Shown here in pieces: positions 1,983 to 38,232 of a stretch of 64,000 nt of DNA. The notes beneath the pieces were generated by a model that had not been told where the DNA came from, searched no databases, and worked only from the letters and a program-made list of their open reading frames with translations. Source of the DNA: an uncultured Syntrophomonadaceae bacterium (GTDB lineage: Bacteria > Bacillota > Dethiobacteria > DTU022). Numbering within the stretch: the stretch's first letter is position 1; each line of letters starts with the position of its first letter. The translations under genes and the position numbers were made by a program. Location of the stretch: positions 20,478 through 84,477 of the forward strand of contig CAYQQK010000003.1 of NCBI GenBank assembly GCA_964420065.1, given 5' to 3'.

Positions 1983-4900
1983 GTTTCACCAACTACCCCG
2001 ATCAATAGGGGACTGAAAGACGGCCCGGCGTGATCTTTCGCAGGTAGTCGATATGTGTTTCACCAACTACCCCGATCAATAGGGGACTGAAAGCCGGTCA
2101 TCGGATCCGGATAGGTAGCTTCGAAATAGTTTCACCAACTACCCCGATCAATAGGGGACTGAAAGCTTGTGGTTTTTAATTCAGTGTCAACGTCAATGGT
2201 TATGTTTCACCAACTACCCCGATCAATAGGGGACTGAAAGACCTTCGGATAAACAGGCGGACAAGGCACGAGACGAGTTTCACCAACTACCCCGATCAAT
2301 AGGGGACTGAAAGGGCAAAAAGATGGCCAAATAACAAAGGTTACATTGACGTTTCACCAACTACCCCGATCAATAGGGGACTGAAAGCCTGGTATTCACT
2401 GTGGGTCATTTTCATCTTCATCTGTTTCACCAACTACCCCGATCAATAGGGGACTGAAAGACTTCTCCGGCGGTCTGTCTGATGCGGCCCCCGATGAGTT
2501 TCACCAACTACCCCGATCAATAGGGGACTGAAAGTATACACCTACCTTCAGCGCCACATCGGCAAAGAAAGTTTCACCAACTACCCCGATCAATAGGGGA
2601 CTGAAAGTTACGCGCTTTCGAACATCCGGCAGTGGCTGAACAAGGTTTCACCAACTACCCCGATCAATAGGGGACTGAAAGTGAAGGACTGGTAATTGCC
2701 CAGGTTTTTAACATATCGTTTCACCAACTACCCCGATCAATAGGGGACTGAAAGAATGAATAAAAAAAGAGGCAGGATCTAATCGACCCTGCGTTTCACC
2801 AACTACCCCGATCAATAGGGGACTGAAAGTGTAACAGGATCAAAATAACCATGAACATATAAACTTGTTTCACCAACTACCCCGATCAATAGGGGACTGA
2901 AAGTATGCCCAGTAAAGCGGAGCAATGTCAATATATCTTTGTTTCACCAACTACCCCGATCAATAGGGGACTGAAAGTACCCCAGAAAGCTCCTCCCCTT
3001 GCAACATCGTGACGTTGTTTCACCAACTACCCCGATCAATAGGGGACTGAAAGACTCTTTGGCCATGCGCCGGGAGAACCGCACGCACTCGTTTCACCAA
3101 CTACCCCGATCAATAGGGGACTGAAAGGAACTGGAGGAGCCGGAAATAGGAATTGAGGAACGGCGTTTCACCAACTACCCCGATCAATAGGGGACTGAAA
3201 GCGTGGAGGGGGAGCAGGGGGTGGCTGCGTCTCCGGCTGTTTCACCAACTACCCCGATCAATAGGGGACTGAAAGAGGGGCTGCTTTGCTGCTGCTGGAC
3301 CGGCCATCAGGGGTTTCACCAACTACCCCGATCAATAGGGGACTGAAAGCAAAGTTTCACCCGGGCGTTCCCAGCGTCGATGCCTGTTTCACCAACTACC
3401 CCGATCAATAGGGGACTGAAAGGGGAAAGAAGGGCAAGACCTTTAACGCTTTCATCAACGTTTCACCAACTACCCCGATCAATAGGGGACTGAAAGGGAT
3501 TGACGGCTCCGGGGCAGGCCGTAAGACTAGAGTTTCACCAACTACCCCGATCAATAGGGGACTGAAAGATCAGCTCTACCTGATGGACTCCTCGTGCTCG
3601 GTGTTTCACCAACTACCCCGATCAATAGGGGACTGAAAGATAACCCCGGGAGTGGGGAGCAGGTAACCTTCTTTGTTTCACCAACTACCCCGATCAATAG
3701 GGGACTGAAAGGCTTGCGGTAGGCGGGATCTACGGAGTGCTCAAGCTGTTTCACCAACTACCCCGATCAATAGGGGACTGAAAGAGCATCGTCACGTTGG
3801 TGTTGGAACTGGATGCGGCGTTTCACCAACTACCCCGATCAATAGGGGACTGAAAGCTTCCGGCGGGGGCCTGGCCTTTGAGCTACCCGGCGTTTCACCA
3901 ACTACCCCGATCAATAGGGGACTGAAAGAATCATCGGCAAGATCGGTGTGGCAGCGAAAGGCATCGGTTTCACCAACTACCCCGATCAATAGGGGACTGA
4001 AAGCCCAACAGCGCCACCAGCCACCAATTGATCCGGTCCGTTTCACCAACTACCCCGATCAATAGGGGACTGAAAGCCAAAGAGTTACTCCTGGAACATA
4101 CATTTTTTCACTTGTTTCACCAACTACCCCGATCAATAGGGGACTGAAAGGTTCCTGATCCTGGTTGGCCTAACCGTTCCTGTAACCGTTTCACCAACTA
4201 CCCCGATCAATAGGGGACTGAAAGCCAGACAATGATCCACCACTTGCATTTACTCTTTGTGTTTCACCAACTACCCCGATCAATAGGGGACTGAAAGCTG
4301 GGACAATTTACCTTGGGATAATGGGAAAGAAATAGTTTCACCAACTACCCCGATCAATAGGGGACTGAAAGTGTTTGGGAAAAGCACCACGGCCGCGAGG
4401 TGCCGCGTTTCACCAACTACCCCGATCAATAGGGGACTGAAAGGGAACTTTCCGATAGCCGGCACGTTCTGGACACAGACAGTTTCACCAACTACCCCGA
4501 TCAATAGGGGACTGAAAGCAAAACCTACCACACAGCTTTGGCAGTTTGTGTGGTAACGTTTCACCAACTACCCCGATCAATAGGGGACTGAAAGTTTGGC
4601 GAGGCGAAGAAAAAACCACCAGCCTACCCGGTTTCACCAACTACCCCGATCAATAGGGGACTGAAAGCGCTGCATTTTCCACAGAATATCAGGCCCGATA
4701 AAAGGTGTTTCACCAACTACCCCGATCAATAGGGGACTGAAAGGATAAGGATACCTATATTCTCTTTTGGTTTTTACATGTTTCACCAACTACCCCGATC
4801 AATAGGGGACTGAAAGCGGGATAAATAACTCTCCCACTTTTTTAACATGCATTGTTTCACCAACTACCCCGATCAATAGGGGACTGAAAGACACATGTTG

Positions 4901-5265
4901 CGGCATACCTTTGCCACGGACCTGCTGCGTTTCACCAACTACCCCGATCAATAGGGGACTGAAAGCGTCATACAGGGCTGCCGCACTGGTGGGATAGTCT
5001 TTGTTTCACCAACTACCCCGATCAATAGGGGACTGAAAGTATACTTACAGCAAGGAGTGATCGTCGTGAAAAAGAAAAAAATAACCTTCTACATCCGGCA
5101 CGAGGTTGCAGAAGCCCTTCGCCTTTTTGCGTTTAAGCAACGCACTAGCCGAAGCGCCGTTGTCGAACTCGCCCTAGAAAAATGCATTCCCGAAAGCTAC
5201 TTTCGGGAGGTAAACCCTATCGAATAGCGTTTCACCAACTACCCCGATCAATAGGGGGCTGAAAG
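1983..5265 (+). CRISPR. CRISPR array: 42 identical 37-nt repeats (GTTTCACCAACTACCCCGATCAATAGGGGACTGAAAG), then a 189-nt atypical insert, then one degenerate terminal repeat (A>G)
   Basis: I counted repeat starts at 1983, 2057, 2129 ... 5003; spacers are 35-38 nt. The repeat has a 4-bp stem (CCCC/GGGG) followed by an 8-nt ACUGAAAG 3' handle, typical of Cas6-processed type I-A/I-B/III repeats. The terminal repeat at 5229-5265 reads GGGGGCTGAAAG. Confidence 0.97.
5066..5227 (+). CDS. Small ribbon-helix-helix (CopG/Arc-like) protein encoded inside the CRISPR array trailer (53 aa, below the ORF-track cutoff)
   Basis: GTG start 8 nt after an AAGGAGTGA RBS. Translation VKKKKITFYIRHEVAEALRLFAFKQRTSRSAVVELALEKCIPESYFREVNPIE has a beta-strand followed by two helices. 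It sits between the last perfect repeat (ends 5039) and the degenerate terminal repeat (5229). Confidence 0.45.
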   Translation: MKKKKITFYIRHEVAEALRLFAFKQRTSRSAVVELALEKCIPESYFREVNPIE

Positions 5266-5318: not shown

Positions 5319-5501
5319 ATGAGCATGGCATCGATGCAGCCCCTGTTCGGGTGGATACTTGATCGTTCCTGGCAGGGAGCGCTGATCGAGGGAGTGCGTT
5401 GTTACCCTCTTTCCGGCTATCGCGCCGCTTTTGGATTATGTCTTGCGGGGGTGTTGCTCTCCCTGGTCGCCGGTTTTTGTATCCGCGAAAAACACCGCTA
5501 G
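5319..5501 (+). pseudogene. Possible C-terminal remnant of an MFS-type transporter at the array trailer
   Basis: A 60-aa ORF with a hydrophobic C-terminal TM-like segment (GLCLAGVLLSLVAGF) and no plausible full-length gene upstream. Confidence 0.2.
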
Positions 5502-5597
5502 ATAATGCAGGCACGTATTTTATTTTTGGCAACGGCAGGAATTAGGGCTTACATGTCGAATAATTAAACAGTACTAAAATATTGAGGTAAGGGTTAA

Positions 5598-5702
5598 ACC
5601 CTGACCGACAAAGGCAAACCTGTCGAAAGACAGGGACGCAAAGCCATGGGTCTACAGCCCGCGCAGGCGGGCCATGATTGCCAAGCTGCCGAAACAGGGC
5701 TT
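5598..5702 (+). ncRNA. Cyclic-di-GMP-I (GEMM) riboswitch aptamer
   Basis: GGCAAACC-TGTC-GAAAG-ACAGGGACGCAAAGCC ... GCCAAGCTGCCGAAA matches the GEMM-I core (GNRA loop, GGGACGCAAAGCC, receptor hairpin). A downstream CCCTC...GGAGGG hairpin could sequester the SD of the following gene. Confidence 0.7.
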
Positions 5703-5748
5703 TTGTGTTTGGGCGTCGGTCCCTCTAGCTTACTGGAGGGCTCACGTC

Positions 5749-7155
5749 ATGCCGATTTACAGAGGCAAATCCACGGCAAGAATCATTCGTCTCCTGACCA
5801 TCATTATCATCTTCTTTTTGATTGCGGCGGCAGGGGCAAACTATGCCGCCGAAAGCGAGGGCTTTGACGGTCATGCAGTGCAAGGCAGCTTTCCGGGCGA
5901 TGGCGGGCAGCCGCTGGAAAGTTCACCAGCTCACGATCCGGTTAGTCTTGCAGACGTCCCGGCATCGCCGTTACCGGAAGACAAGCTTTTAGATTCCGCA
6001 CTCCCGGAGCCCAAGCCTGTTTCCGATTGTGGTTTAAATCCTGATTCCAATCATGGTGTTTCCTCGAATCTATCACCTTCAATGTCCGAACCGATCCCCC
6101 CGCCTTCATCCGAGCCGGCTCCAACGTCTTCCCCGGAGGAACCCGTAACACCGACGGCATCGCAGTCGGCCACCCGATCAGGTGCCGCCCCGGTTGTTCC
6201 GTTACCGGTCGAAAAACCGGTTGACGCCACCACCGGCCCGGCGGCGGATAAAGTTGTTCACGAGCCCGGTACTGCAATTTCCCCTATTACCCTTGGGCCC
6301 GGATGTAACCGCAATTTGCGTATGCGCATCAAGGTGACAAATTCCGGTGGTGACGAATCCCGTGAAATCAGGGTTGAAATACCCCTTTTGGGAACACTAA
6401 GTTCACCTTATCAGGTTGTGTTGCAGGAAACGTTCAGTCATACTCCTACCGCTGTCGACACCCTGGCCCAGGGTAGCCGGGTCGGCCATTTTTATATTGA
6501 TGCCCTGGCACCCGGCTCATCCATAACCCTTGTTATTGACTACTCCGTGCGGGTCCACCCCTTGATCGCCCATTTTGATGCTTACACCGGAGGGCCGCTT
6601 TCCATGTCACCCGGTTTTCTTCTTCCTTCGTCTCGAATCGAAAGCGATAACCCCAGGATTATAGCCCGGGCGGCGGATATTACTTCCGGTAAAATTAACG
6701 ATTTGGAAAAAGCCCGGGCGATCTACGGGTTTGTACAGCAGTATCTGCGGTATGATTTGAATTCGCCGCACCGCAATCAGGGGGCGCTGTCTGCCCTCGA
6801 AAATGCCACCGGGGTTTGTGAAGATTATGCCGCTCTCTTTGCCGCGCTCTGCCGGGCATCCGGTATACCGGCCCGCCAGGTCAACGGTTATACCGATCCC
6901 CGAGGAATAGGTGAAATATTTAACACTTCCCTCTCCCTGCACGGTTACCGGCATAGCTGGGCGGAATTTTACCTTGAGGGTATGGGTTGGCTGCCGGCGG
7001 ATCCGGCCATGGGCATCGGTTCTCCCTCGGTGTCATATTTTGGCTCTTTACCGGGGGCCGGCCACATCGCTCAAAATTACCAGGATCAGCCCATGCGGGT
7101 CAAATTTACGGGCGGCCAGTTGGCAGTGACCTGGGACGAGCTGTTATTTCAGTAA
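5749..7155 (+). CDS. Exported or membrane-anchored transglutaminase-like cysteine protease-fold protein with a Pro/Ser-rich linker
   Basis: N-terminal TM/signal (RIIRLLTIIIIFFLIAAAG) and a PS-rich low-complexity segment. Transglutaminase core motifs GVCEDYAALFAALCRASGIPAR ... HSWAEFY ... WLPADP. GGAGGG RBS before the ATG at 5749. The ORF-track start at 5674 lies inside the riboswitch. Confidence 0.7.
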   Translation: MPIYRGKSTARIIRLLTIIIIFFLIAAAGANYAAESEGFDGHAVQGSFPGDGGQPLESSPAHDPVSLADVPASPLPEDKLLDSALPEPKPVSDCGLNPDSNHGVSSNLSPSMSEPIPPPSSEPAPTSSPEEPVTPTASQSATRSGAAPVVPLPVEKPVDATTGPAADKVVHEPGTAISPITLGPGCNRNLRMRIKVTNSGGDESREIRVEIPLLGTLSSPYQVVLQETFSHTPTAVDTLAQGSRVGHFYIDALAPGSSITLVIDYSVRVHPLIAHFDAYTGGPLSMSPGFLLPSSRIESDNPRIIARAADITSGKINDLEKARAIYGFVQQYLRYDLNSPHRNQGALSALENATGVCEDYAALFAALCRASGIPARQVNGYTDPRGIGEIFNTSLSLHGYRHSWAEFYLEGMGWLPADPAMGIGSPSVSYFGSLPGAGHIAQNYQDQPMRVKFTGGQLAVTWDELLFQ

Positions 7156-7194: not shown

Positions 7195-7244
7195 GCCCGC
7201 CGGAGCCGGGGCGACCCGGTTCCGGCGGGCCCTGCTTGTTTTAC
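7195..7244 (+). terminator. Intrinsic terminator after the transglutaminase-like gene
   Basis: GCCCGCCGGA ... TCCGGCGGGC stem followed by cctgcTTGTTTT. Confidence 0.5.
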
Positions 7245-13472: not shown

Positions 13473-13549
13473 GGCGCGCCTGGGAGGATTTGAACCCCCG
13501 ACCAACGGATTAGAAGTCCGCTGCTCTATCCCCTGAGCTACAGGCGCGC
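13473..13549 (-). tRNA. tRNA-Arg (anticodon TCT)
   Basis: Reverse complement GCGCGCCTGTAGCTCAGGGGATAGAGCAGCGGACTTCTAATCCGTTGGTCGGGGGTTCAAATCCTCCCAGGCGCGCCA folds as a cloverleaf with anticodon loop CU-UCU-AA. CCA is encoded. Confidence 0.85.
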
Positions 13550-19509: not shown

Positions 19510-20718
19510 ATGCGAAAACTACCTTTATGGGCCTTGCGACCCGGCATGGAAGTAGCCCGGCGGGTCTACGACGGCAACGGTTTTTTGCTTTTGAACACCG
19601 GGGTTAAACTAAGACGGGCCTATATCGAGGGGCTGAAGGCTCACTGTATTCCCGCAATCTATATTGTTGATGATCTTATTCCAGACGTCCAAATTGTAGA
19701 CGTGATCCTTGATAAAACTCGACGGCGGGCCACCAGCCTGGTCCGCAAAATTATTTGTCAAGCACAACAATCGCCACAAAAAAACAAAAAGGAACAGGTA
19801 TTTCTTCCCCGGAGAGAATTGGAAACCGTTCTGGAGGAAATTATTTCCCAACTGCTCCACAACCGTCACCTGGCGATCAATATGACGGATATTCGCAGTG
19901 CGGATAGCTATACTTTTTCCCACTCGGTGAACGTAGCCGTCCTGGCAATAGTGACTGCAGCCGCCATGGGGTTGTCCCTTTCCGAGCTGCACCGGATCGG
20001 GCTGGGTGCGTTGCTGCACGATCTCGGGAAAACAAAAATTCCGCCTGCCATTCTGAACAAACGGACCCCGCTCCGGAGTGAAGAGATGGAACGGATTAAA
20101 CAACACCCGGCCGATGGTTACCGGATGTTGCAAACACAAAACTTTGGTTCCGCCGCCGCTTTGGTGGTTTATCAGCACCATGAACGCATTGATGGCAGCG
20201 GTTACCCCGACGGTATCACCGGAACAGAGATCGAACTTTTCTCCAAGATCGTCGCTGTAGTCGATGTTTATGACGCCCTGGTTTCCGATCGCCCGTATCG
20301 CCCGGCTTTTCCGCCACACCAGGCGATGGAGATTATCCAGGCCGGTAACGGCAGTTTTGATCGGGGTATTGTTGATAGGTTTCGCTATCATGTTCCGGCT
20401 TTCCCCGTGGGGACGATCGTGGCATTAAGTGACGGTTTTATCGGTGTGGTCGTTCAAAACACGGTTGGTTTTCCAACCAGTCCCCGGGTGCGAATCTTTT
20501 GCCGGCTTGAAACTTTTGAACCGGTAGTTCCTTTTGAAATAAATTTAGCCGACTCCCTTTCGGTGGTTGTAATCAAAGTCCTCGATGACCGGGAACTGCC
20601 TGATCCGTTGCCGATCCACGAATCCTGTCATGCAGCCAAACACAAGGGAAGTGCAAACATTCCGGCGCTGCACGGTGGAATCAGCAAGGCAAACCGTAGG
20701 GAAAAACCAACGGCCTAG
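19510..20718 (+). CDS. HD-GYP domain c-di-GMP phosphodiesterase
   Basis: HD motif (LLHDLGKTKIP) and HHERIDGSGYPDG (GYP) motif. Confidence 0.8.
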   Translation: MRKLPLWALRPGMEVARRVYDGNGFLLLNTGVKLRRAYIEGLKAHCIPAIYIVDDLIPDVQIVDVILDKTRRRATSLVRKIICQAQQSPQKNKKEQVFLPRRELETVLEEIISQLLHNRHLAINMTDIRSADSYTFSHSVNVAVLAIVTAAAMGLSLSELHRIGLGALLHDLGKTKIPPAILNKRTPLRSEEMERIKQHPADGYRMLQTQNFGSAAALVVYQHHERIDGSGYPDGITGTEIELFSKIVAVVDVYDALVSDRPYRPAFPPHQAMEIIQAGNGSFDRGIVDRFRYHVPAFPVGTIVALSDGFIGVVVQNTVGFPTSPRVRIFCRLETFEPVVPFEINLADSLSVVVIKVLDDRELPDPLPIHESCHAAKHKGSANIPALHGGISKANRREKPTA

Positions 20719-35295: not shown

Positions 35296-35376
35296 AGACC
35301 GAAAAGAGGGCAAACCCGTCGCAAGGCGGGGACGCAAAGCCACGGATCCGTTTCGGATTGCCAGGCTGCCGGTCGG
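35296..35376 (+). ncRNA. Cyclic-di-GMP-I (GEMM) riboswitch aptamer in the flgB leader
   Basis: P1 GACCG/CGGTC encloses AGGGCAAACC-CGTC-GCAA-GGCGGGGACGCAAAGCC ... GATTGCCAGGCTGCCGG, which matches the GEMM-I core. Confidence 0.75.
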
Positions 35377-35416
35377 AGAGAGGGGCCCCGGATCAAGGGC
35401 TCTTAAGACTTTCGAA

Positions 35417-35441
35417 AGGCAGCGCAAGCTGCCTTTTTTTT
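35417..35441 (+). terminator. Intrinsic terminator of the riboswitch expression platform
   Basis: GGCAGC-GCAA-GCTGCC followed by T8. Confidence 0.65.
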
Positions 35442-35478
35442 GTCTCCAGGAATGACGAAGAAAGGGGGGAAAAAAGTG

Positions 35479-35880
35479 ATGCTTTCCCGGAATAACAGGG
35501 TCATGGAGTGCTTGAACCGGAGTCTCGATGCGGCGGTGTTGCGCCAGCAGGTCACCGCTCATAACCTGGCCAACTTGAATACGCCGCGTTTCAAACGTTC
35601 CACCGTTATTTTTGAAAAATCCCTGCGGCAGGCTCTTGCGCAAACAAAAACCGGGCCGGTGACGACCCATCCGCTGCACCGGCCCGCCGGGAATGCTCTC
35701 CCTGAACCCCGGGTGCAAGTGGAACAACAGACGGCAGTACGGGTCGATGGGAACAATGTTGATCTGGAACGGGAAATGCTGGATCTGGTGATGAACCAGT
35801 TGCGTTATCAGGCCCTGGTCCGGCAGATCAACGGCCGTTGTGATGACTGGCGCTACGTCATTGCCGAGGGGAGGCGCTAA
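35479..35880 (+). CDS. flgB: Flagellar basal-body rod protein FlgB
   Basis: HNLANLNTPRFKR motif. The start lies after the terminator (RBS AAAGGGGGG); the ORF-track start at 35440 lies inside the terminator. Confidence 0.85.
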   Translation: MLSRNNRVMECLNRSLDAAVLRQQVTAHNLANLNTPRFKRSTVIFEKSLRQALAQTKTGPVTTHPLHRPAGNALPEPRVQVEQQTAVRVDGNNVDLEREMLDLVMNQLRYQALVRQINGRCDDWRYVIAEGRR

Positions 35881-35881
35881 A

Positions 35882-36337
35882 ATGGCCTTGTTTGAACTGT
35901 TTCATATCTCCGGTTCCGCACTCACGGCTGAAAAGCTGCGTCTGGAGGTTGTTTCCGGCAACCTGGCCAATATGACCACGACCCGTACCGCCGCAGGCGG
36001 TCCCTACCGGCGGCGTACAGTCGTTTTTGCCGAAAACCTGGCCACCTCAAGAAACGGTCCCGCCGTCTCCGCGCCGGTAAGCGGGACGACAGCCGGTCCC
36101 TTGGCCGGCCGGGGGGTTCGGGTCCAGGCTATCCTGGCGGATCACCGCTCTCCCCGGCTGGTCTACGATCCGGACCATCCTGATGCCGGGGAGGACGGTT
36201 ACGTGCCCTATCCGAACATAGACCTGGCCAAAGAAATTACCGATATGATGACCGCTTTGCGGTCCTACGAAGTCAGCTCTACCGCTATCGAAGCCGCCAA
36301 AACCATCTATCTTAAAACACTTGAAATCGGTCGCTAG
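35882..36337 (+). CDS. flgC: Flagellar basal-body rod protein FlgC
   Basis: MALFELFHISGSALTAEKLRLEVVSGNLANMTTT... matches FlgC. Confidence 0.9.
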   Translation: MALFELFHISGSALTAEKLRLEVVSGNLANMTTTRTAAGGPYRRRTVVFAENLATSRNGPAVSAPVSGTTAGPLAGRGVRVQAILADHRSPRLVYDPDHPDAGEDGYVPYPNIDLAKEITDMMTALRSYEVSSTAIEAAKTIYLKTLEIGR

Positions 36338-36357
36338 GGACGAAGGAGGGAACGGTT

Positions 36358-36663
36358 ATGCTCGGGACTGTTACGAATTGTCTCCCTGCTGTACAACCGG
36401 GAAGCGCGGTTGCGGGTGAAAAATCCAAAACGGCTGCAAACCCGACCTTTGCGGCCCGTTTGCAAGAGGCGTTGCAGGAGGTAAACCGGTTGCAGGTCGA
36501 GGCGGACAGGGCATCTCTTGGCCTGGCAACTGGTGACGGGCTTGAAGACCTGCATCACCTCATGATTGCCACCACCAGGGCGCAGTTGTCTTTGCAGCTC
36601 ACGGTTCAGGTCGTGAATAAAGTGCTCCAGGCATACCAGGAAATTTCACGGATGCAGGTTTAA
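36358..36663 (+). CDS. fliE: Flagellar hook-basal body protein FliE
   Basis: C-terminus LHHLMIATTRAQLSLQLTVQVVNKVLQAYQEISRMQV matches FliE. Confidence 0.8.
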   Translation: MLGTVTNCLPAVQPGSAVAGEKSKTAANPTFAARLQEALQEVNRLQVEADRASLGLATGDGLEDLHHLMIATTRAQLSLQLTVQVVNKVLQAYQEISRMQV

Positions 36664-36696
36664 GCGCATCAAATAACCAGGGGAACGGGTGAAAGC

Positions 36697-38232
36697 ATGT
36701 CGGAAGGCAGCAATGCAACCCCGGTAACGGAAAAAAAACAAAGTCCTGCCGGACAATTCTGGAGTGGCTTGAGCCGGCCTACCCGTCTGATCATGGGTGC
36801 GGCGGCGTTCGTGATTGTTTGTGCTTTGTTCTTTTTTATCTTTGGTCAGAAGAAAACCCCGCTGGAGGTGCTGTTCAGCGGGTTGGAACCGGGCCAGGCG
36901 GAGGAGGTGCTGGCGGTCCTGGAAGAACAGCGGATCCCTTTTGATACCGCCGACGAAGGTGCCACGATCCTGGTCCCACGGGAACAGCGGGACCGGTTGC
37001 GGATCAAACTTTCCCCCGACCTTTATGCCCAGGGCAAGGGGTTTGCTCTTTTTGAAGCCGGCGGTCTGATCGCAAGCGACTTTGAACGGCGGGTACAGTG
37101 GCAGATCGCCCTGGAGGAGGAACTGCGTCGGACCATTACCAGTCTCGATTCGATCAAGCAGGCCCGGGTGCACCTGGTCATTCCCGAGGACGGGGTGTTT
37201 ATGCGCGACAGGGGGGTGCCGACCGCCGCCATTTTCGTGCGATTGGAACCGTTGGCTTCATTGACCGACCAGCAAGTGCGCGGCATCCTGACCATGGTTG
37301 CCGGGAGCGTGGAGGGGCTGTTGCCGGAAAACGTGACGATCATCGATGCCCGGGGCAACGTCCTTTTTGATGCCTTCCAGCTAGGGGAAAAAAATTCGCC
37401 CCAGCATGCTTCCAGCCAGATCGAGCTGCAGCGCGGTTTTGAACGGGAACTGGAATATCGTTTGCGAACCCTGCTCGAGCGGATCTACGGTCCAGGTAAA
37501 GCCGTGGCCATGGTCAGCGCCGAACTCGATTTTGAAACCCGTGAACGGACTACCGTTACTTACAGCGATCCGGTTAATCGTTCCGAACAGCACCTTGAAG
37601 AATGGTACGAAGGGACGGCCGGGCTGCCGCTGGAGGTGGGCGAACCGAACATTCCAGGCTATGCCGCCGAAACCGGCGCCGGCGATTACGAGTACGAACG
37701 GATTGAAGACATTATCAACTACGAAGTTGGGGAAACCCGGGAATATATCGCCTCGGCTCCCGGGCAAGTAAAACGCCTTTCGGCGGCAGTCATTCTTGAC
37801 CGGCCCGCTTCAGAAGAAACGGCCGAACGAATCGCCGCCCTGGTTGCCTCGGCCATTGGCCTGGATGATATTCGAGGTGATATCGTTTCGGTCCAGTGCC
37901 TGCCGTTTGATACCTCGTGGCAGGAGGGGTGGGAAGAAGAACCGGCCGTACCTGCTCCGGCGGGACGTTTCACCTTGCGCCCCCTGCATCTTGTTGCCGC
38001 CGCCGTTGCCCTGGGATTGTTACTGTTCCTGGGAGTGGTTCTGGTTCGGCGCAGCCGGGCCGCCCACCTGCAGGATATGGAGCTTTTCCGGGAAGGCATG
38101 ATTGAAGAAGCGGCGGCGGAAGAAAAGCCGGCGCCTCCCGAACAGAAAAAGCATGAACAGGTCCGGCAGATGGCTGAAGATGAACCGGAAGACATGGCCC
38201 AGGTGTTACGAACCTGGTTGGCTCAAGAGTAA
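36697..38232 (+). CDS. fliF: Flagellar MS-ring protein FliF
   Basis: 511 aa with an N-terminal TM, a LEPGQAEEVLAVLEEQRIPF domain and a C-terminal TM. Confidence 0.9.
   Translation: MSEGSNATPVTEKKQSPAGQFWSGLSRPTRLIMGAAAFVIVCALFFFIFGQKKTPLEVLFSGLEPGQAEEVLAVLEEQRIPFDTADEGATILVPREQRDRLRIKLSPDLYAQGKGFALFEAGGLIASDFERRVQWQIALEEELRRTITSLDSIKQARVHLVIPEDGVFMRDRGVPTAAIFVRLEPLASLTDQQVRGILTMVAGSVEGLLPENVTIIDARGNVLFDAFQLGEKNSPQHASSQIELQRGFERELEYRLRTLLERIYGPGKAVAMVSAELDFETRERTTVTYSDPVNRSEQHLEEWYEGTAGLPLEVGEPNIPGYAAETGAGDYEYERIEDIINYEVGETREYIASAPGQVKRLSAAVILDRPASEETAERIAALVASAIGLDDIRGDIVSVQCLPFDTSWQEGWEEEPAVPAPAGRFTLRPLHLVAAAVALGLLLFLGVVLVRRSRAAHLQDMELFREGMIEEAAAEEKPAPPEQKKHEQVRQMAEDEPEDMAQVLRTWLAQE

What the first reader, a model, noticed from the sequence alone, without database searches (positions are those of the whole stretch)
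5598..7155. c-di-GMP riboswitch controlling a transglutaminase-like surface protein, with an SD-sequestering hairpin
A GEMM-I aptamer lies in the leader of an exported transglutaminase-fold protein with a Pro/Ser-rich stalk, as in known c-di-GMP-controlled adhesin or surface-protein genes of Clostridia. Between the aptamer and the ATG, CCCTC (about 5721-5725) can pair with the GGAGGG SD (about 5737-5742). This suggests translational gating rather than termination alone. The ORF-track start (5674) lies inside the aptamer, so the true start is the ATG at 5749.
Basis: partly seen in the sequence, partly recalled or inferred. Interest (0 to 1): 0.6.

Follow-up and report, generated by a model that had tools for sequence, protein, structure and literature searches.

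The report
c-di-GMP riboswitch upstream of transglutaminase-like gene
A standard c-di-GMP-sensing RNA switch sits in front of a gene for an exported transglutaminase-like protein, together with a conserved hairpin that hides the ribosome-binding site; it is a well-supported but ordinary new example of a known regulator, most likely switching the gene off when c-di-GMP is high.

Summary
Rfam finds a GEMM-I aptamer at 5604-5694 (+), 74.1 bits, E 1e-15. The top model is the 'GGC' variant RF03167, but the diagnostic base is the canonical A (A5640), so this is an ordinary c-di-GMP-I aptamer. A second model of the same clan also passes its threshold there. This pairing is the core of a 15-bp hairpin (5712-5748, -21.6 kcal/mol) that ends one base before ATG 5749. 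The ORF (468 aa) has an N-terminal membrane/signal segment, a Pro/Ser-rich linker and a Transglut_core domain.

The aptamer lies upstream of homologous genes in 43 of 79 genome loci. Main-clade leaders share three features: a covarying P1 extension, usually abutting a U-run (28/31); a strand (GUCGGUC) complementary to the aptamer's 5' strand (7-12 bp, 35/35, three kinds of compensatory change); and the SD hairpin.

Best model: an OFF switch. Bound ligand locks P1, which frees that strand to complete the SD hairpin and may also terminate transcription. Direction and mechanism are inferred; equilibrium folding does not by itself show SD opening.

New member of a known kind; the gene association is already published.

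The parts
5584..5587 (+). Upstream GAGG; tentative partner for CCUC (5722-5725) when the ribosome-binding site is open
   Evidence: It pairs with 5722-5725 in the RBS-open, ligand-free minimum-energy structure. A GAGG-hairpin-CCUG arrangement recurs in about 14 homologous leaders. It is not known whether it lies inside the transcript, because no convincing promoter was found.
5586..5606 (+). Predicted 5' hairpin (P0) whose 3' strand contains the 5' strand of the P1 extension, so it competes with P1 closure
   Evidence: Present in the minimum-energy fold. The equivalent hairpins in homologs differ in sequence: AGGGU/ACCCU, AGGAG/UUCCU, AGGUA/UACCU, AGGAU/AUCCU. It is not universal.
5599..5603 (+). 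P1 extension, 5' strand (CCCUG)
   Evidence: Pairs with 5695-5699. A helix of 4-7 bp was found at this place in 31 of 31 leaders, with compensatory variants such as AUCUG/CAGAU, UCCUAC/GUAGGA, CUCC/GGAG and AUUUCCU/GGGAAAU. Two pairs show changes on both sides in alignment A2.
5604..5694 (+). c-di-GMP-I (GEMM-I) aptamer. P1 is C5606-G5691 and G5607-C5690. P1a is 5614-5639 with a GAAA loop at 5625-5628. P1b is 5642-5687. Ligand-contact positions are G5613 (G20), A5640 (A47) and C5689 (C92).
   Evidence: cmscan 74.1 bits, E 1.1e-15. A second model of the same clan also passes its threshold. In alignment A2, 93.8% of pair cells form standard pairs and 7 pairs change on both sides. One window-specific mismatch, C5645.A5684, is also present in the independent contig L080.
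5695..5699 (+). P1 extension, 3' strand (CAGGG)
5700..5710 (+). U-rich tract (CUUUUGUGUUU) immediately after the P1 extension; candidate termination site when P1 is closed
   Evidence: At least 5 U in the 8 nt after the P1 extension in 28 of 31 leaders. The three exceptions have a separate canonical terminator hairpin further downstream.
5715..5721 (+). Switching strand GUCGGUC. It is complementary to the aptamer 5' strand GACCGAC (5603-5609) and also forms the base of the SD hairpin.
   Evidence: A contiguous complementary run of 7-12 bp in 35 of 35 main-clade leaders. 100% of cells paired in A2, with one covarying pair. Compensatory changes: CCGAU with AUCGG, AAG with CUU, AGCGAC with GUCGC.
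5712..5748 (+). SD-sequestering hairpin. Anti-SD CCCUC is at 5721-5725 and SD GGAGGG at 5735-5740.
   Evidence: -21.6 kcal/mol, z -3.06. A hairpin of -8.8 to -16.8 kcal/mol is present in all 25 main-clade leaders tested. Two pairs change on both sides.
5749..7155 (+). CDS of 468 aa: N-terminal signal/anchor segment, Pro/Ser-rich linker, transglutaminase-like core
   Evidence: PDB relatives by sequence are 6g49 and 3isr.
7195..7230 (+). Terminator-like hairpin after the gene (16 pairs, followed by a T-rich tail); the gene appears to be monocistronic

Best explanation
The element is a canonical c-di-GMP-I (GEMM-I) riboswitch in the 5' leader of a monocistronic gene for a cell-surface transglutaminase-like protein, a putative Cys-His-Asp enzyme. 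It most likely acts as an OFF switch.

Without ligand, the aptamer's 5' strand GACCGAC (5603-5609) pairs with the downstream strand GUCGGUC (5715-5721). The upstream GAGG may also pair with CCUC. This pairing occupies the base of the anti-SD strand before the SD is transcribed, so the hairpin over the SD is shortened or delayed and ribosomes can load.

With c-di-GMP bound, P1 and its 5-bp extension (5599-5603 with 5695-5699) lock the 5' strand. GUCGGUCCCUC is then free to form the full 15-bp hairpin over GGAGGG, and translation is blocked. Because the closed P1 extension directly abuts a U-run (5700-5710), ligand binding may also cause premature termination.

What is shown: the aptamer, its canonical binding-site nucleotides, the conserved helices and their compensatory changes, and the gene association. 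What is inferred: the ligand, the direction (OFF), the translational gating and the termination arm.
For: Aptamer and ligand signature:
- 74.1 bits, E 1e-15, and a second model of the same clan passes its threshold.
- G5613, A5640 and C5689 are canonical. All 59 aptamers inspected in related loci and the window (41, 18) have A at position 47.

Gene association:
- The aptamer is 5' of homologs in 43 of 79 genome loci and in L081-L083.

Conserved platform:
- P1 extension in 31 of 31 leaders, followed by a U-run in 28 of 31.
- Aptamer-5'-strand to switching-strand helix of 7-12 bp in 35 of 35, with three kinds of compensatory change.
- SD hairpin in all main-clade leaders, with compensatory changes.

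Direction (OFF):
- The modelled cost of opening the RBS is higher with the aptamer closed in 28 of 31 leaders and never the reverse. The means are 15.7 and 9.9 kcal/mol; for the window 20.5 and 15.6.
- In homologs that carry an extra terminator, its 5' strand pairs with the P1-extension 3' strand in nascent transcripts in at least 11 of 16. That is the classical design of an OFF switch.
- In L029 the SD abuts and overlaps the P1 3' strand.
- All C. difficile class I c-di-GMP switches are OFF, including those for flgB and the protease PPEP-1 (PMC11477304).

c-di-GMP signalling in this genome:
- The window also holds a second aptamer before flgB and an HD-GYP-type protein.
Against: - Equilibrium ensembles keep the SD paired in both states in most leaders, including the window, where P(unpaired) is about 0.
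- The window's hairpin is the strongest of the set and its helix with the aptamer 5' strand is the shortest (7 bp). Opening therefore costs 15.6 kcal/mol even without ligand.
- The open-cost difference is not specific. Comparison leaders without an SD hairpin gave -1.4 to +5.7 kcal/mol, which overlaps the window's 5.0.
- Six of the seven pairs of the switching helix never vary in the close group, so formal covariation there is thin.
- A 5-bp stem closing a 91-nt aptamer is an unusual terminator, and the window's U-run is interrupted (CUUUUGUGUUU).
- The transcription start is unknown.
- The aptamer has a C.A mismatch in P1b.
- No binding or expression data exist.
Confidence: 0.6

Rival explanations
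1. A purely transcriptional OFF switch. c-di-GMP stabilises P1 and its extension, and RNA polymerase terminates at the adjoining U-run. The SD hairpin is a constitutive feature that damps translation or stabilises the mRNA and is not controlled by the ligand.
For: The SD is predicted to be paired in both states. The U-run follows the P1 extension in 28 of 31 leaders. Firmicute riboswitches, and C. difficile class I c-di-GMP switches in particular, are mainly transcriptional (PMC11477304). Sister aptamers in the same genomes use the P1 extension, U-run and terminator without any SD hairpin.
Against: It does not explain why the strand forming the base of the SD hairpin is complementary to the aptamer 5' strand over 7-12 bp in 35 of 35 leaders, with compensatory changes in three lineages. 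The window has no canonical terminator hairpin, and its U-run is weak.
Confidence: 0.22
2. An ON switch. Ligand-driven closure of the P1 extension unfolds the 5' hairpin P0. This releases the purine-rich strand GAGGUAAGGG (5584-5594), which pairs with the anti-SD and frees the SD, as would be expected for a c-di-GMP-induced surface or adhesion protein.
For: P0 and the P1 extension share the strand 5599-5603. In the closed-aptamer, RBS-open structure, the upstream purine-rich strand does pair with the anti-SD region. Surface proteins in Clostridia are often induced by c-di-GMP.
Against: Opening the RBS costs more, not less, when the aptamer is closed in 28 of 31 leaders. The GAGG/P0 element is missing from many leaders. 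Homologs with a separate terminator have OFF wiring. This model leaves the helix between the aptamer 5' strand and the switching strand without a role.
Confidence: 0.08
3. A variant-specificity aptamer, as the Rfam label 'c-di-GMP-I-GGC' suggests, that senses a different signalling molecule rather than c-di-GMP.
For: The best-scoring Rfam model is RF03167.
Against: The only core position at which the RF03167 consensus differs from RF01051 (GACGC-G-AA against GACGC-A-AA) is A in the window, and the match line is blank at that column. It is also A in every related aptamer, including all those labelled RF03167. G20 and C92 are canonical, and there is no A20 of the cGAMP type. The label most likely reflects clan competition, because the RF03167 model tolerates the long distal P1b and scores the P1 pairs.
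Confidence: 0.05

Closest known systems
C. difficile class I c-di-GMP riboswitches upstream of flgB (Cd1) and of the secreted protease PPEP-1/ZmpI
   Same: Same aptamer class in a Firmicute 5' leader. The predicted logic is also OFF. The target is a secreted or surface hydrolase-type protein, as with PPEP-1. The window also carries a second aptamer in front of flgB-flgC-fliE-fliF, as in C. difficile.
   Different: The C. difficile switches are described as transcriptional, with separate terminators (PMC11477304). This leader has no separate terminator hairpin and adds a conserved SD-sequestering hairpin linked to the aptamer 5' strand. The controlled protein has a transglutaminase-like Cys fold and is not a metalloprotease.
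[quoted passage not shown]
   Same: The same gene-family association in the same phylum. Tandem and triple aptamers occur before homologs of this gene in L016, L029, L051, L055 and L065.
   Different: The window has a single aptamer. In the passage I read, that survey reports an enrichment statistic; I did not check whether it also analyses expression platforms or regulatory direction.
Vibrio cholerae Vc2 aptamer, the structural reference for GEMM-I
   Same: Three-helix junction, GAAA tetraloop on P1a, and ligand-contact nucleotides G20/A47/C92 (numbering from my own knowledge of the Vc2 crystal structures).
   Different: Different lineage and gene. Here the distal P1b is longer, P1 is only 2 bp followed by a 2x3 internal loop and a 5-bp extension, and there is one C.A mismatch in P1b.
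c-di-GMP-I-GGC variant class (Rfam RF03167)
   Same: Highest covariance-model score (74.1 bits; gathering score 59).
   Different: The defining G at position 47 is absent; the window has A5640. It should not be filed as this variant.
LapD/LapG system of Pseudomonas fluorescens (PMC3032545)
   Same: An extracytoplasmic transglutaminase-like Cys-His-Asp enzyme whose activity would be confined to low c-di-GMP. This is an analogy of logic only.
   Different: LapG is controlled post-translationally, by sequestration on LapD. It belongs to a different family (DUF920/BTLCP) that did not match here. No substrate is known for the window protein.

Membership tests
c-di-GMP-I riboswitch (GEMM-I, Rfam RF01051 / clan CL00126) | Covariance-model score at or above the gathering score | tested here: met
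   RF03167 scores 74.1 bits (gathering score 59) at 5604-5694. One more model of the same clan reaches its own gathering score on the same stretch. The RF01051 score itself is hidden by clan competition.
c-di-GMP-I riboswitch (GEMM-I, Rfam RF01051 / clan CL00126) | Ligand-contacting nucleotides G20, A47 and C92 (Vc2 numbering, from my own knowledge) | tested here: met
   G5613, A5640 and C5689, read from the cmscan alignment and the sequence.
c-di-GMP-I riboswitch (GEMM-I, Rfam RF01051 / clan CL00126) | Helices P1, P1a and P1b supported by covariation; GNRA loop on P1a | tested here: met
   93.8% of pair cells form standard pairs, 7 pairs change on both sides, and 0 of 500 shuffles reach the observed values. 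The GAAA loop is at 5625-5628. The tetraloop-receptor region reads CUAC...AUGA against consensus CUAA...AUGA and was not assessed rigorously.
c-di-GMP-I riboswitch (GEMM-I, Rfam RF01051 / clan CL00126) | Location in a 5' leader, on the same strand as the downstream gene, conserved across species | tested here: met
   The aptamer ends 54 nt before ATG 5749. The same arrangement is found in 43 of 79 homolog loci.
c-di-GMP-I riboswitch (GEMM-I, Rfam RF01051 / clan CL00126) | Selective binding of c-di-GMP and ligand-dependent gene control | not testable with these tools
   Requires in-line probing or ITC, and reporter assays.
c-di-GMP-I-GGC variant (Rfam RF03167) | Covariance-model score at or above the gathering score of 59 | tested here: met
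   74.1 bits.
c-di-GMP-I-GGC variant (Rfam RF03167) | G instead of A at the intercalating position 47 (consensus GACGC-G-AA) | tested here: not met
   The window reads GACGC-A-AA (A5640), and the match line is blank at that column. All 22 related aptamers labelled RF03167, and the five further ones, also have A.
Transglutaminase-like superfamily (Pfam PF01841 Transglut_core) | HMM score above the curated cutoff | tested here: met
   96.6 bits against a cutoff of 23, E 1.3e-27, residues 307-419.
Transglutaminase-like superfamily (Pfam PF01841 Transglut_core) | Cys-His-Asp catalytic triad | tested here: inconclusive
   C357 and H402 are invariant in 41 homologs. D418 is present in the window but is not among the columns that are at least 90% conserved in that alignment.
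LapG-type BTLCP proteases (DUF920) | Match to the family profile | tested here: not met
   PF01841 was the only Pfam hit at E <= 0.01.

The most novel reading that the evidence does not exclude
Across Syntrophomonadaceae, Dethiobacteria and related Clostridia, a surface transglutaminase-like Cys enzyme would be made only at low c-di-GMP. Control would come from a compact two-tier OFF platform. In tier one, the aptamer's own P1 extension serves as the terminator stem, with no separate terminator hairpin. In tier two, one switching strand toggles between the aptamer 5' strand and the base of the SD hairpin. This would be an RNA-level, Gram-positive counterpart of the LapG or PPEP-1 'release from the surface when c-di-GMP falls' circuit.
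Probability: 0.25. Interest if true: 0.5.

Novelty: new member of a known kind. Interest (0 to 1): 0.3.

Why it matters
The finding adds a well-supported c-di-GMP regulon member in poorly studied anaerobic Bacillota known mainly from metagenome-assembled genomes. The member is an exported transglutaminase-like enzyme.

It gives a testable wiring diagram: P1 extension plus U-run, a switching strand, and an SD hairpin. The diagram predicts repression by c-di-GMP at two levels.

It also gives a practical warning. In these lineages Rfam's clan competition labels many canonical A47 aptamers as the 'GGC' variant. Counts of that orphan variant class taken from automatic annotation may therefore be inflated.

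None of this changes what is known about riboswitch classes.

Tried and rejected
- **Source paper for the GGC variant.** Weinberg et al. 2017 (PMC5358364) is not held. The meaning of 'GGC' therefore rests on my own knowledge and on comparing the two Rfam consensus lines.
- **Equilibrium SD accessibility.** Comparing free and aptamer-closed ensembles gave essentially no difference, so it cannot demonstrate gating.
- **RBS-opening cost.** It pointed to OFF in 28 of 31 leaders. Comparison leaders without an SD hairpin gave up to +5.7 kcal/mol, so I treat it as weak support only.
- **A second anti-aptamer helix, GCCGAA with UUCGGC.** It is present in only part of the family (76% of cells paired) and has a G.G mismatch in the window. 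I did not rely on it.
- **The minimum-energy pairing of the U-run with GACGCAAAGCC**. I did not test it for conservation and did not pursue it.
- **Promoter scan.** It found nothing usable upstream of the aptamer, so the 5' end, and whether GAGG 5584-5587 is transcribed, remain open.
- **Source organism.** The exact-protein lookup gave no name, and the window's genome is not among the GTDB representative genomes; the best locus is 56% identical.
- **ON-switch reading and variant-ligand reading.** Both were considered and given low weight (see rival explanations).
Full report
**1. What is in the sequence**

The intergenic stretch 5502-5748 precedes a 468-aa ORF. A full Rfam scan of the window finds a complete GEMM-I aptamer at 5604-5694 on the + strand. 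It scores 74.1 bits, E 1.1e-15. When only 5540-5780 is scanned, the tool reports one further model of the same clan that reaches its own gathering score on the same stretch and is hidden by clan competition. The hidden model is most plausibly RF01051, whose gathering score is 35.

- CCCUC is at 5721-5725.
- ATG is at 5749, 8 nt after the SD.

The predicted helix is much longer than five pairs. It has 15 pairs spanning 5712-5748, with core CCCUCUAG/CUGGAGGG and loop CUUA, and it ends one base before the AUG. Its energy is -21.6 kcal/mol, z = -3.06, and 2 of 200 dinucleotide shuffles fold as well.

The ORF-track start at 5674 lies inside aptamer helix P1b. The product from 5749 is identical to a database protein. 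The gene is called from the same codon on an independent metagenome contig.

The protein has these features:
- Transglut_core (PF01841), E 1.3e-27, residues 307-419.
- A hydrophobic segment at about residues 12-31, preceded by Arg/Lys.
- A linker (residues 46-200) with 18.7% Pro and 14.2% Ser.
- Candidate triad C357/H402/D418. C357 and H402 are invariant in 41 homologs.
- More distant homologs carry S-layer-homology (SLH) domains in place of the N-terminal anchor, which supports a cell-surface location.
- A strong terminator-like hairpin follows the gene at 7195-7230.

**2. Which aptamer class**

The best Rfam model is RF03167, the 'c-di-GMP-I-GGC' variant. The consensus lines printed differ from RF01051 in the conserved core at one column only: GACGC-G-AA in the variant against GACGC-A-AA in the parent. 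The window has A there (A5640), and the match line is blank at that column.

By my own knowledge of the Vc2 structures, this is A47, the base that intercalates between the two guanines of c-di-GMP. G5613 corresponds to G20 and C5689 to C92, and both are canonical. Every related aptamer I collected has A at this position, including all those that Rfam labelled RF03167.

I therefore file the element as an ordinary c-di-GMP-I aptamer. I read the RF03167 label as a by-product of clan competition, because that model treats the long distal part of P1b as a loop and scores the P1 pairs. The paper that defined the variant could not be retrieved.

**3. Conservation of the gene association**

The protein has 171 relatives at E <= 1e-3. 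An alignment of 41 of them retrieved 79 loci from representative genomes. Nearly all are metagenome-assembled genomes of Syntrophomonadaceae, Dethiobacteria and other Bacillota.

Rfam scans of all 79 loci found a GEMM-I aptamer on the same strand directly upstream of the homolog in 43. Many of the remaining loci are truncated at their 5' end or encode distant relatives, either SLH-type or from outside the Bacillota. The three closest relatives fetched from metagenome assemblies (70%, 56% and 52% identity) also carry the aptamer. Tandem or triple aptamers occur in L016, L029, L051, L055 and L065.

The association is already in the literature. [quoted passage not shown]

**4. Leader anatomy shared by the family**

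Lining up the leaders shows a common order of elements:

5' ...CCUG | ACCGACAAAGGC - aptamer - GCYGCCGAAG | (a)CAGG(G) | U-run | [in some groups a separate canonical terminator hairpin] | (UUCGGC)UGUCGGUCCCUC - loop - GGAGGGAY.. - start codon.

Four features stand out.

(a) *A P1 extension.* A 4-7-bp helix joins the bases flanking the aptamer in 31 of 31 leaders, with many compensatory variants. Two pairs change on both sides in the 13-sequence alignment A2. In the window it is CCCUG 5599-5603 with CAGGG 5695-5699.

(b) *A U-run after the extension.* The extension is followed at once by a U-rich tract in 28 of 31 leaders. The three exceptions have a separate terminator downstream.

(c) *A switching strand.* The strand just 5' of the anti-SD is complementary to the aptamer's 5' strand.
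- In the window the pairing is GUCGGUC 5715-5721 with GACCGAC 5603-5609.
- The run is contiguous for 7-12 bp in 35 of 35 main-clade leaders.
- Compensatory changes occur in separate lineages: CCGAU with AUCGG in L004 and L006; AAG with CUU in L059, L060 and L063, and with a shifted register in L034 and L035; AGCGAC with GUCGC in L069 and L070.
- On A2 all seven pairs are 100% paired. Six never vary, so formal covariation in the close group is thin.
- This helix uses C5606 and G5607, the two bases that form P1, so it cannot coexist with the ligand-binding fold.

(d) *The SD hairpin.* It is present in all 25 main-clade leaders tested, at -8.8 to -16.8 kcal/mol. Compensatory changes include L004 (CCCCU/AGGGG), L081 (CCG/CGG where the window has UAG/CUG) and L069/L070 (a different SD with a matching anti-SD).

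The last three or four bases of the switching strand (GGUC) are also the base of the SD hairpin.

**5. How it most likely works**

These relations define a three-element switch.

With c-di-GMP bound, P1 and its extension hold the aptamer's 5' strand. The switching strand is then free, and the whole anti-SD strand closes over GGAGGG, so translation is off. The closed extension also sits directly against the U-run. It could therefore act as the base of an intrinsic terminator, so that transcription would also be shut off.

Without ligand, the 5' strand pairs with the switching strand as soon as that strand is made, and before the SD emerges. In the window and about 14 other leaders, an upstream GAGG can also pair with CCUC across a small hairpin. 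The anti-SD is then occupied or shortened, and translation is on.

Evidence on direction:
- The modelled free-energy cost of opening the SD-to-start region is higher with the aptamer closed in 28 of 31 leaders and never the reverse. The means are 15.7 and 9.9 kcal/mol; for the window they are 20.5 and 15.6.
- In homologs that have a separate terminator, its 5' strand pairs with the 3' strand of the P1 extension in nascent transcripts in at least 11 of 16. This is the classical antiterminator of an OFF switch.
- In L029 the SD overlaps the P1 3' strand of the last aptamer.
- All class I c-di-GMP riboswitches of C. difficile are OFF switches (PMC11477304).

Caveats:
- Equilibrium ensembles keep the SD paired in both states.
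- The window has the strongest hairpin and the shortest switching helix of the set, so any opening there would have to be kinetic.
- The opening-cost difference also appears in comparison leaders that lack the hairpin, at up to +5.7 kcal/mol.
- The termination arm rests only on the conserved position of the U-run.
- The transcription start is unknown.
- The aptamer has one window-specific mismatch, C5645.A5684, which is also present in the independent contig L080.

I put the composite OFF-with-SD-gating model at about 0.6. The rivals are a purely transcriptional OFF switch with a constitutive hairpin at about 0.2, an ON switch at under 0.1, and a different ligand at about 0.05.

**6. Comparison with known systems**

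The closest known cases are the C. difficile class I switches before flgB and before the secreted protease PPEP-1. They share the aptamer class and the phylum, the predicted direction is the same, and the target is again a secreted enzyme.

The window itself carries a second c-di-GMP-I aptamer at 35299-35373 in front of flgB-flgC-fliE-fliF. It also encodes an HD-GYP-type (HD_5) protein at 19510-20718, so c-di-GMP signalling is evidently used by this organism.

The differences here are the absence of a separate terminator hairpin and the presence of the conserved SD hairpin coupled to the aptamer.

The parallel with LapG is one of logic only. LapG is a transglutaminase-like Cys protease that is active at low c-di-GMP (PMC3032545), but its family did not match this protein.

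**7. Verdict**

This is a new member of a known riboswitch class with a gene association that is already published. The conserved platform and the possible use of P1 itself as the terminator stem are of moderate interest to specialists.

Noticed in passing
window 35299-35373 (+), with ORFs at 35479-38232: A second c-di-GMP-I aptamer (RF01051, 61.2 bits). It is followed by a terminator-like hairpin with a U8 run (about 35415-35445) and then flgB, flgC, fliE and fliF. This is the same arrangement as the Cd1/flgB OFF switch of C. difficile.
   Followed up: partly
window 1983-5043: A CRISPR-like array with a 37-nt repeat, GTTTCACCAACTACCCCGATCAATAGGGGACTGAAAG, and a period of about 72-74 nt. It explains the repetitive 'FSPLLIGVVGET' pseudo-ORFs on the - strand just upstream of the finding.
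   Followed up: partly
window 19510-20718 (+): A 402-aa protein with an HD_5 (HD-GYP-type) domain, E 1e-34. It is a likely c-di-GMP phosphodiesterase encoded in the same window.
   Followed up: partly
L001-L070: all hits labelled RF03167: Every aptamer that Rfam labels 'c-di-GMP-I-GGC' in these loci has the canonical A at position 47. Automatic annotation seems to over-call this orphan variant class in Syntrophomonadaceae and Dethiobacteria.
   Followed up: yes
L005 5258-5363, L010 5362-5474, L014 5245-5347, L027 2035-2138, L031 1881-1971, L032 1829-1941: Another GEMM-I aptamer lies 1.4-2.3 kb downstream of the transglutaminase-like gene, in front of a conserved ORF that starts MF(S/P)KQ. It has the same P1 extension and U-run plus a strong terminator hairpin, but no SD hairpin. 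The function of that ORF was not examined.
   Followed up: no
L029 2523-2900; also L016, L051, L055, L065: Triple (L029) or double tandem aptamers sit before homologs of the gene. In L029 the SD directly abuts the last aptamer's P1 3' strand.
   Followed up: partly
L081 6007-6774, L082 289-912, L083 2767-3987: Sortase genes lie next to the two closest homologs. An EAL-HDOD gene, a c-di-GMP phosphodiesterase type, lies immediately downstream of a third.
   Followed up: no
window 5645 and 5684: A C.A mismatch in aptamer helix P1b where homologs have C-G or U-A. The same bases occur in an independent metagenome contig (L080), so it is not a sequencing error. Its effect on ligand affinity is unknown.
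   Followed up: partly
window 5319-5501 (+): A short ORF (60 aa) that, from reading its sequence only, looks like the C-terminal end of a membrane transporter. It is stranded between the CRISPR array and the riboswitch and is possibly a gene remnant.
   Followed up: no
window 13475-13547 (-): A tRNA gene (70.1 bits).
   Followed up: no
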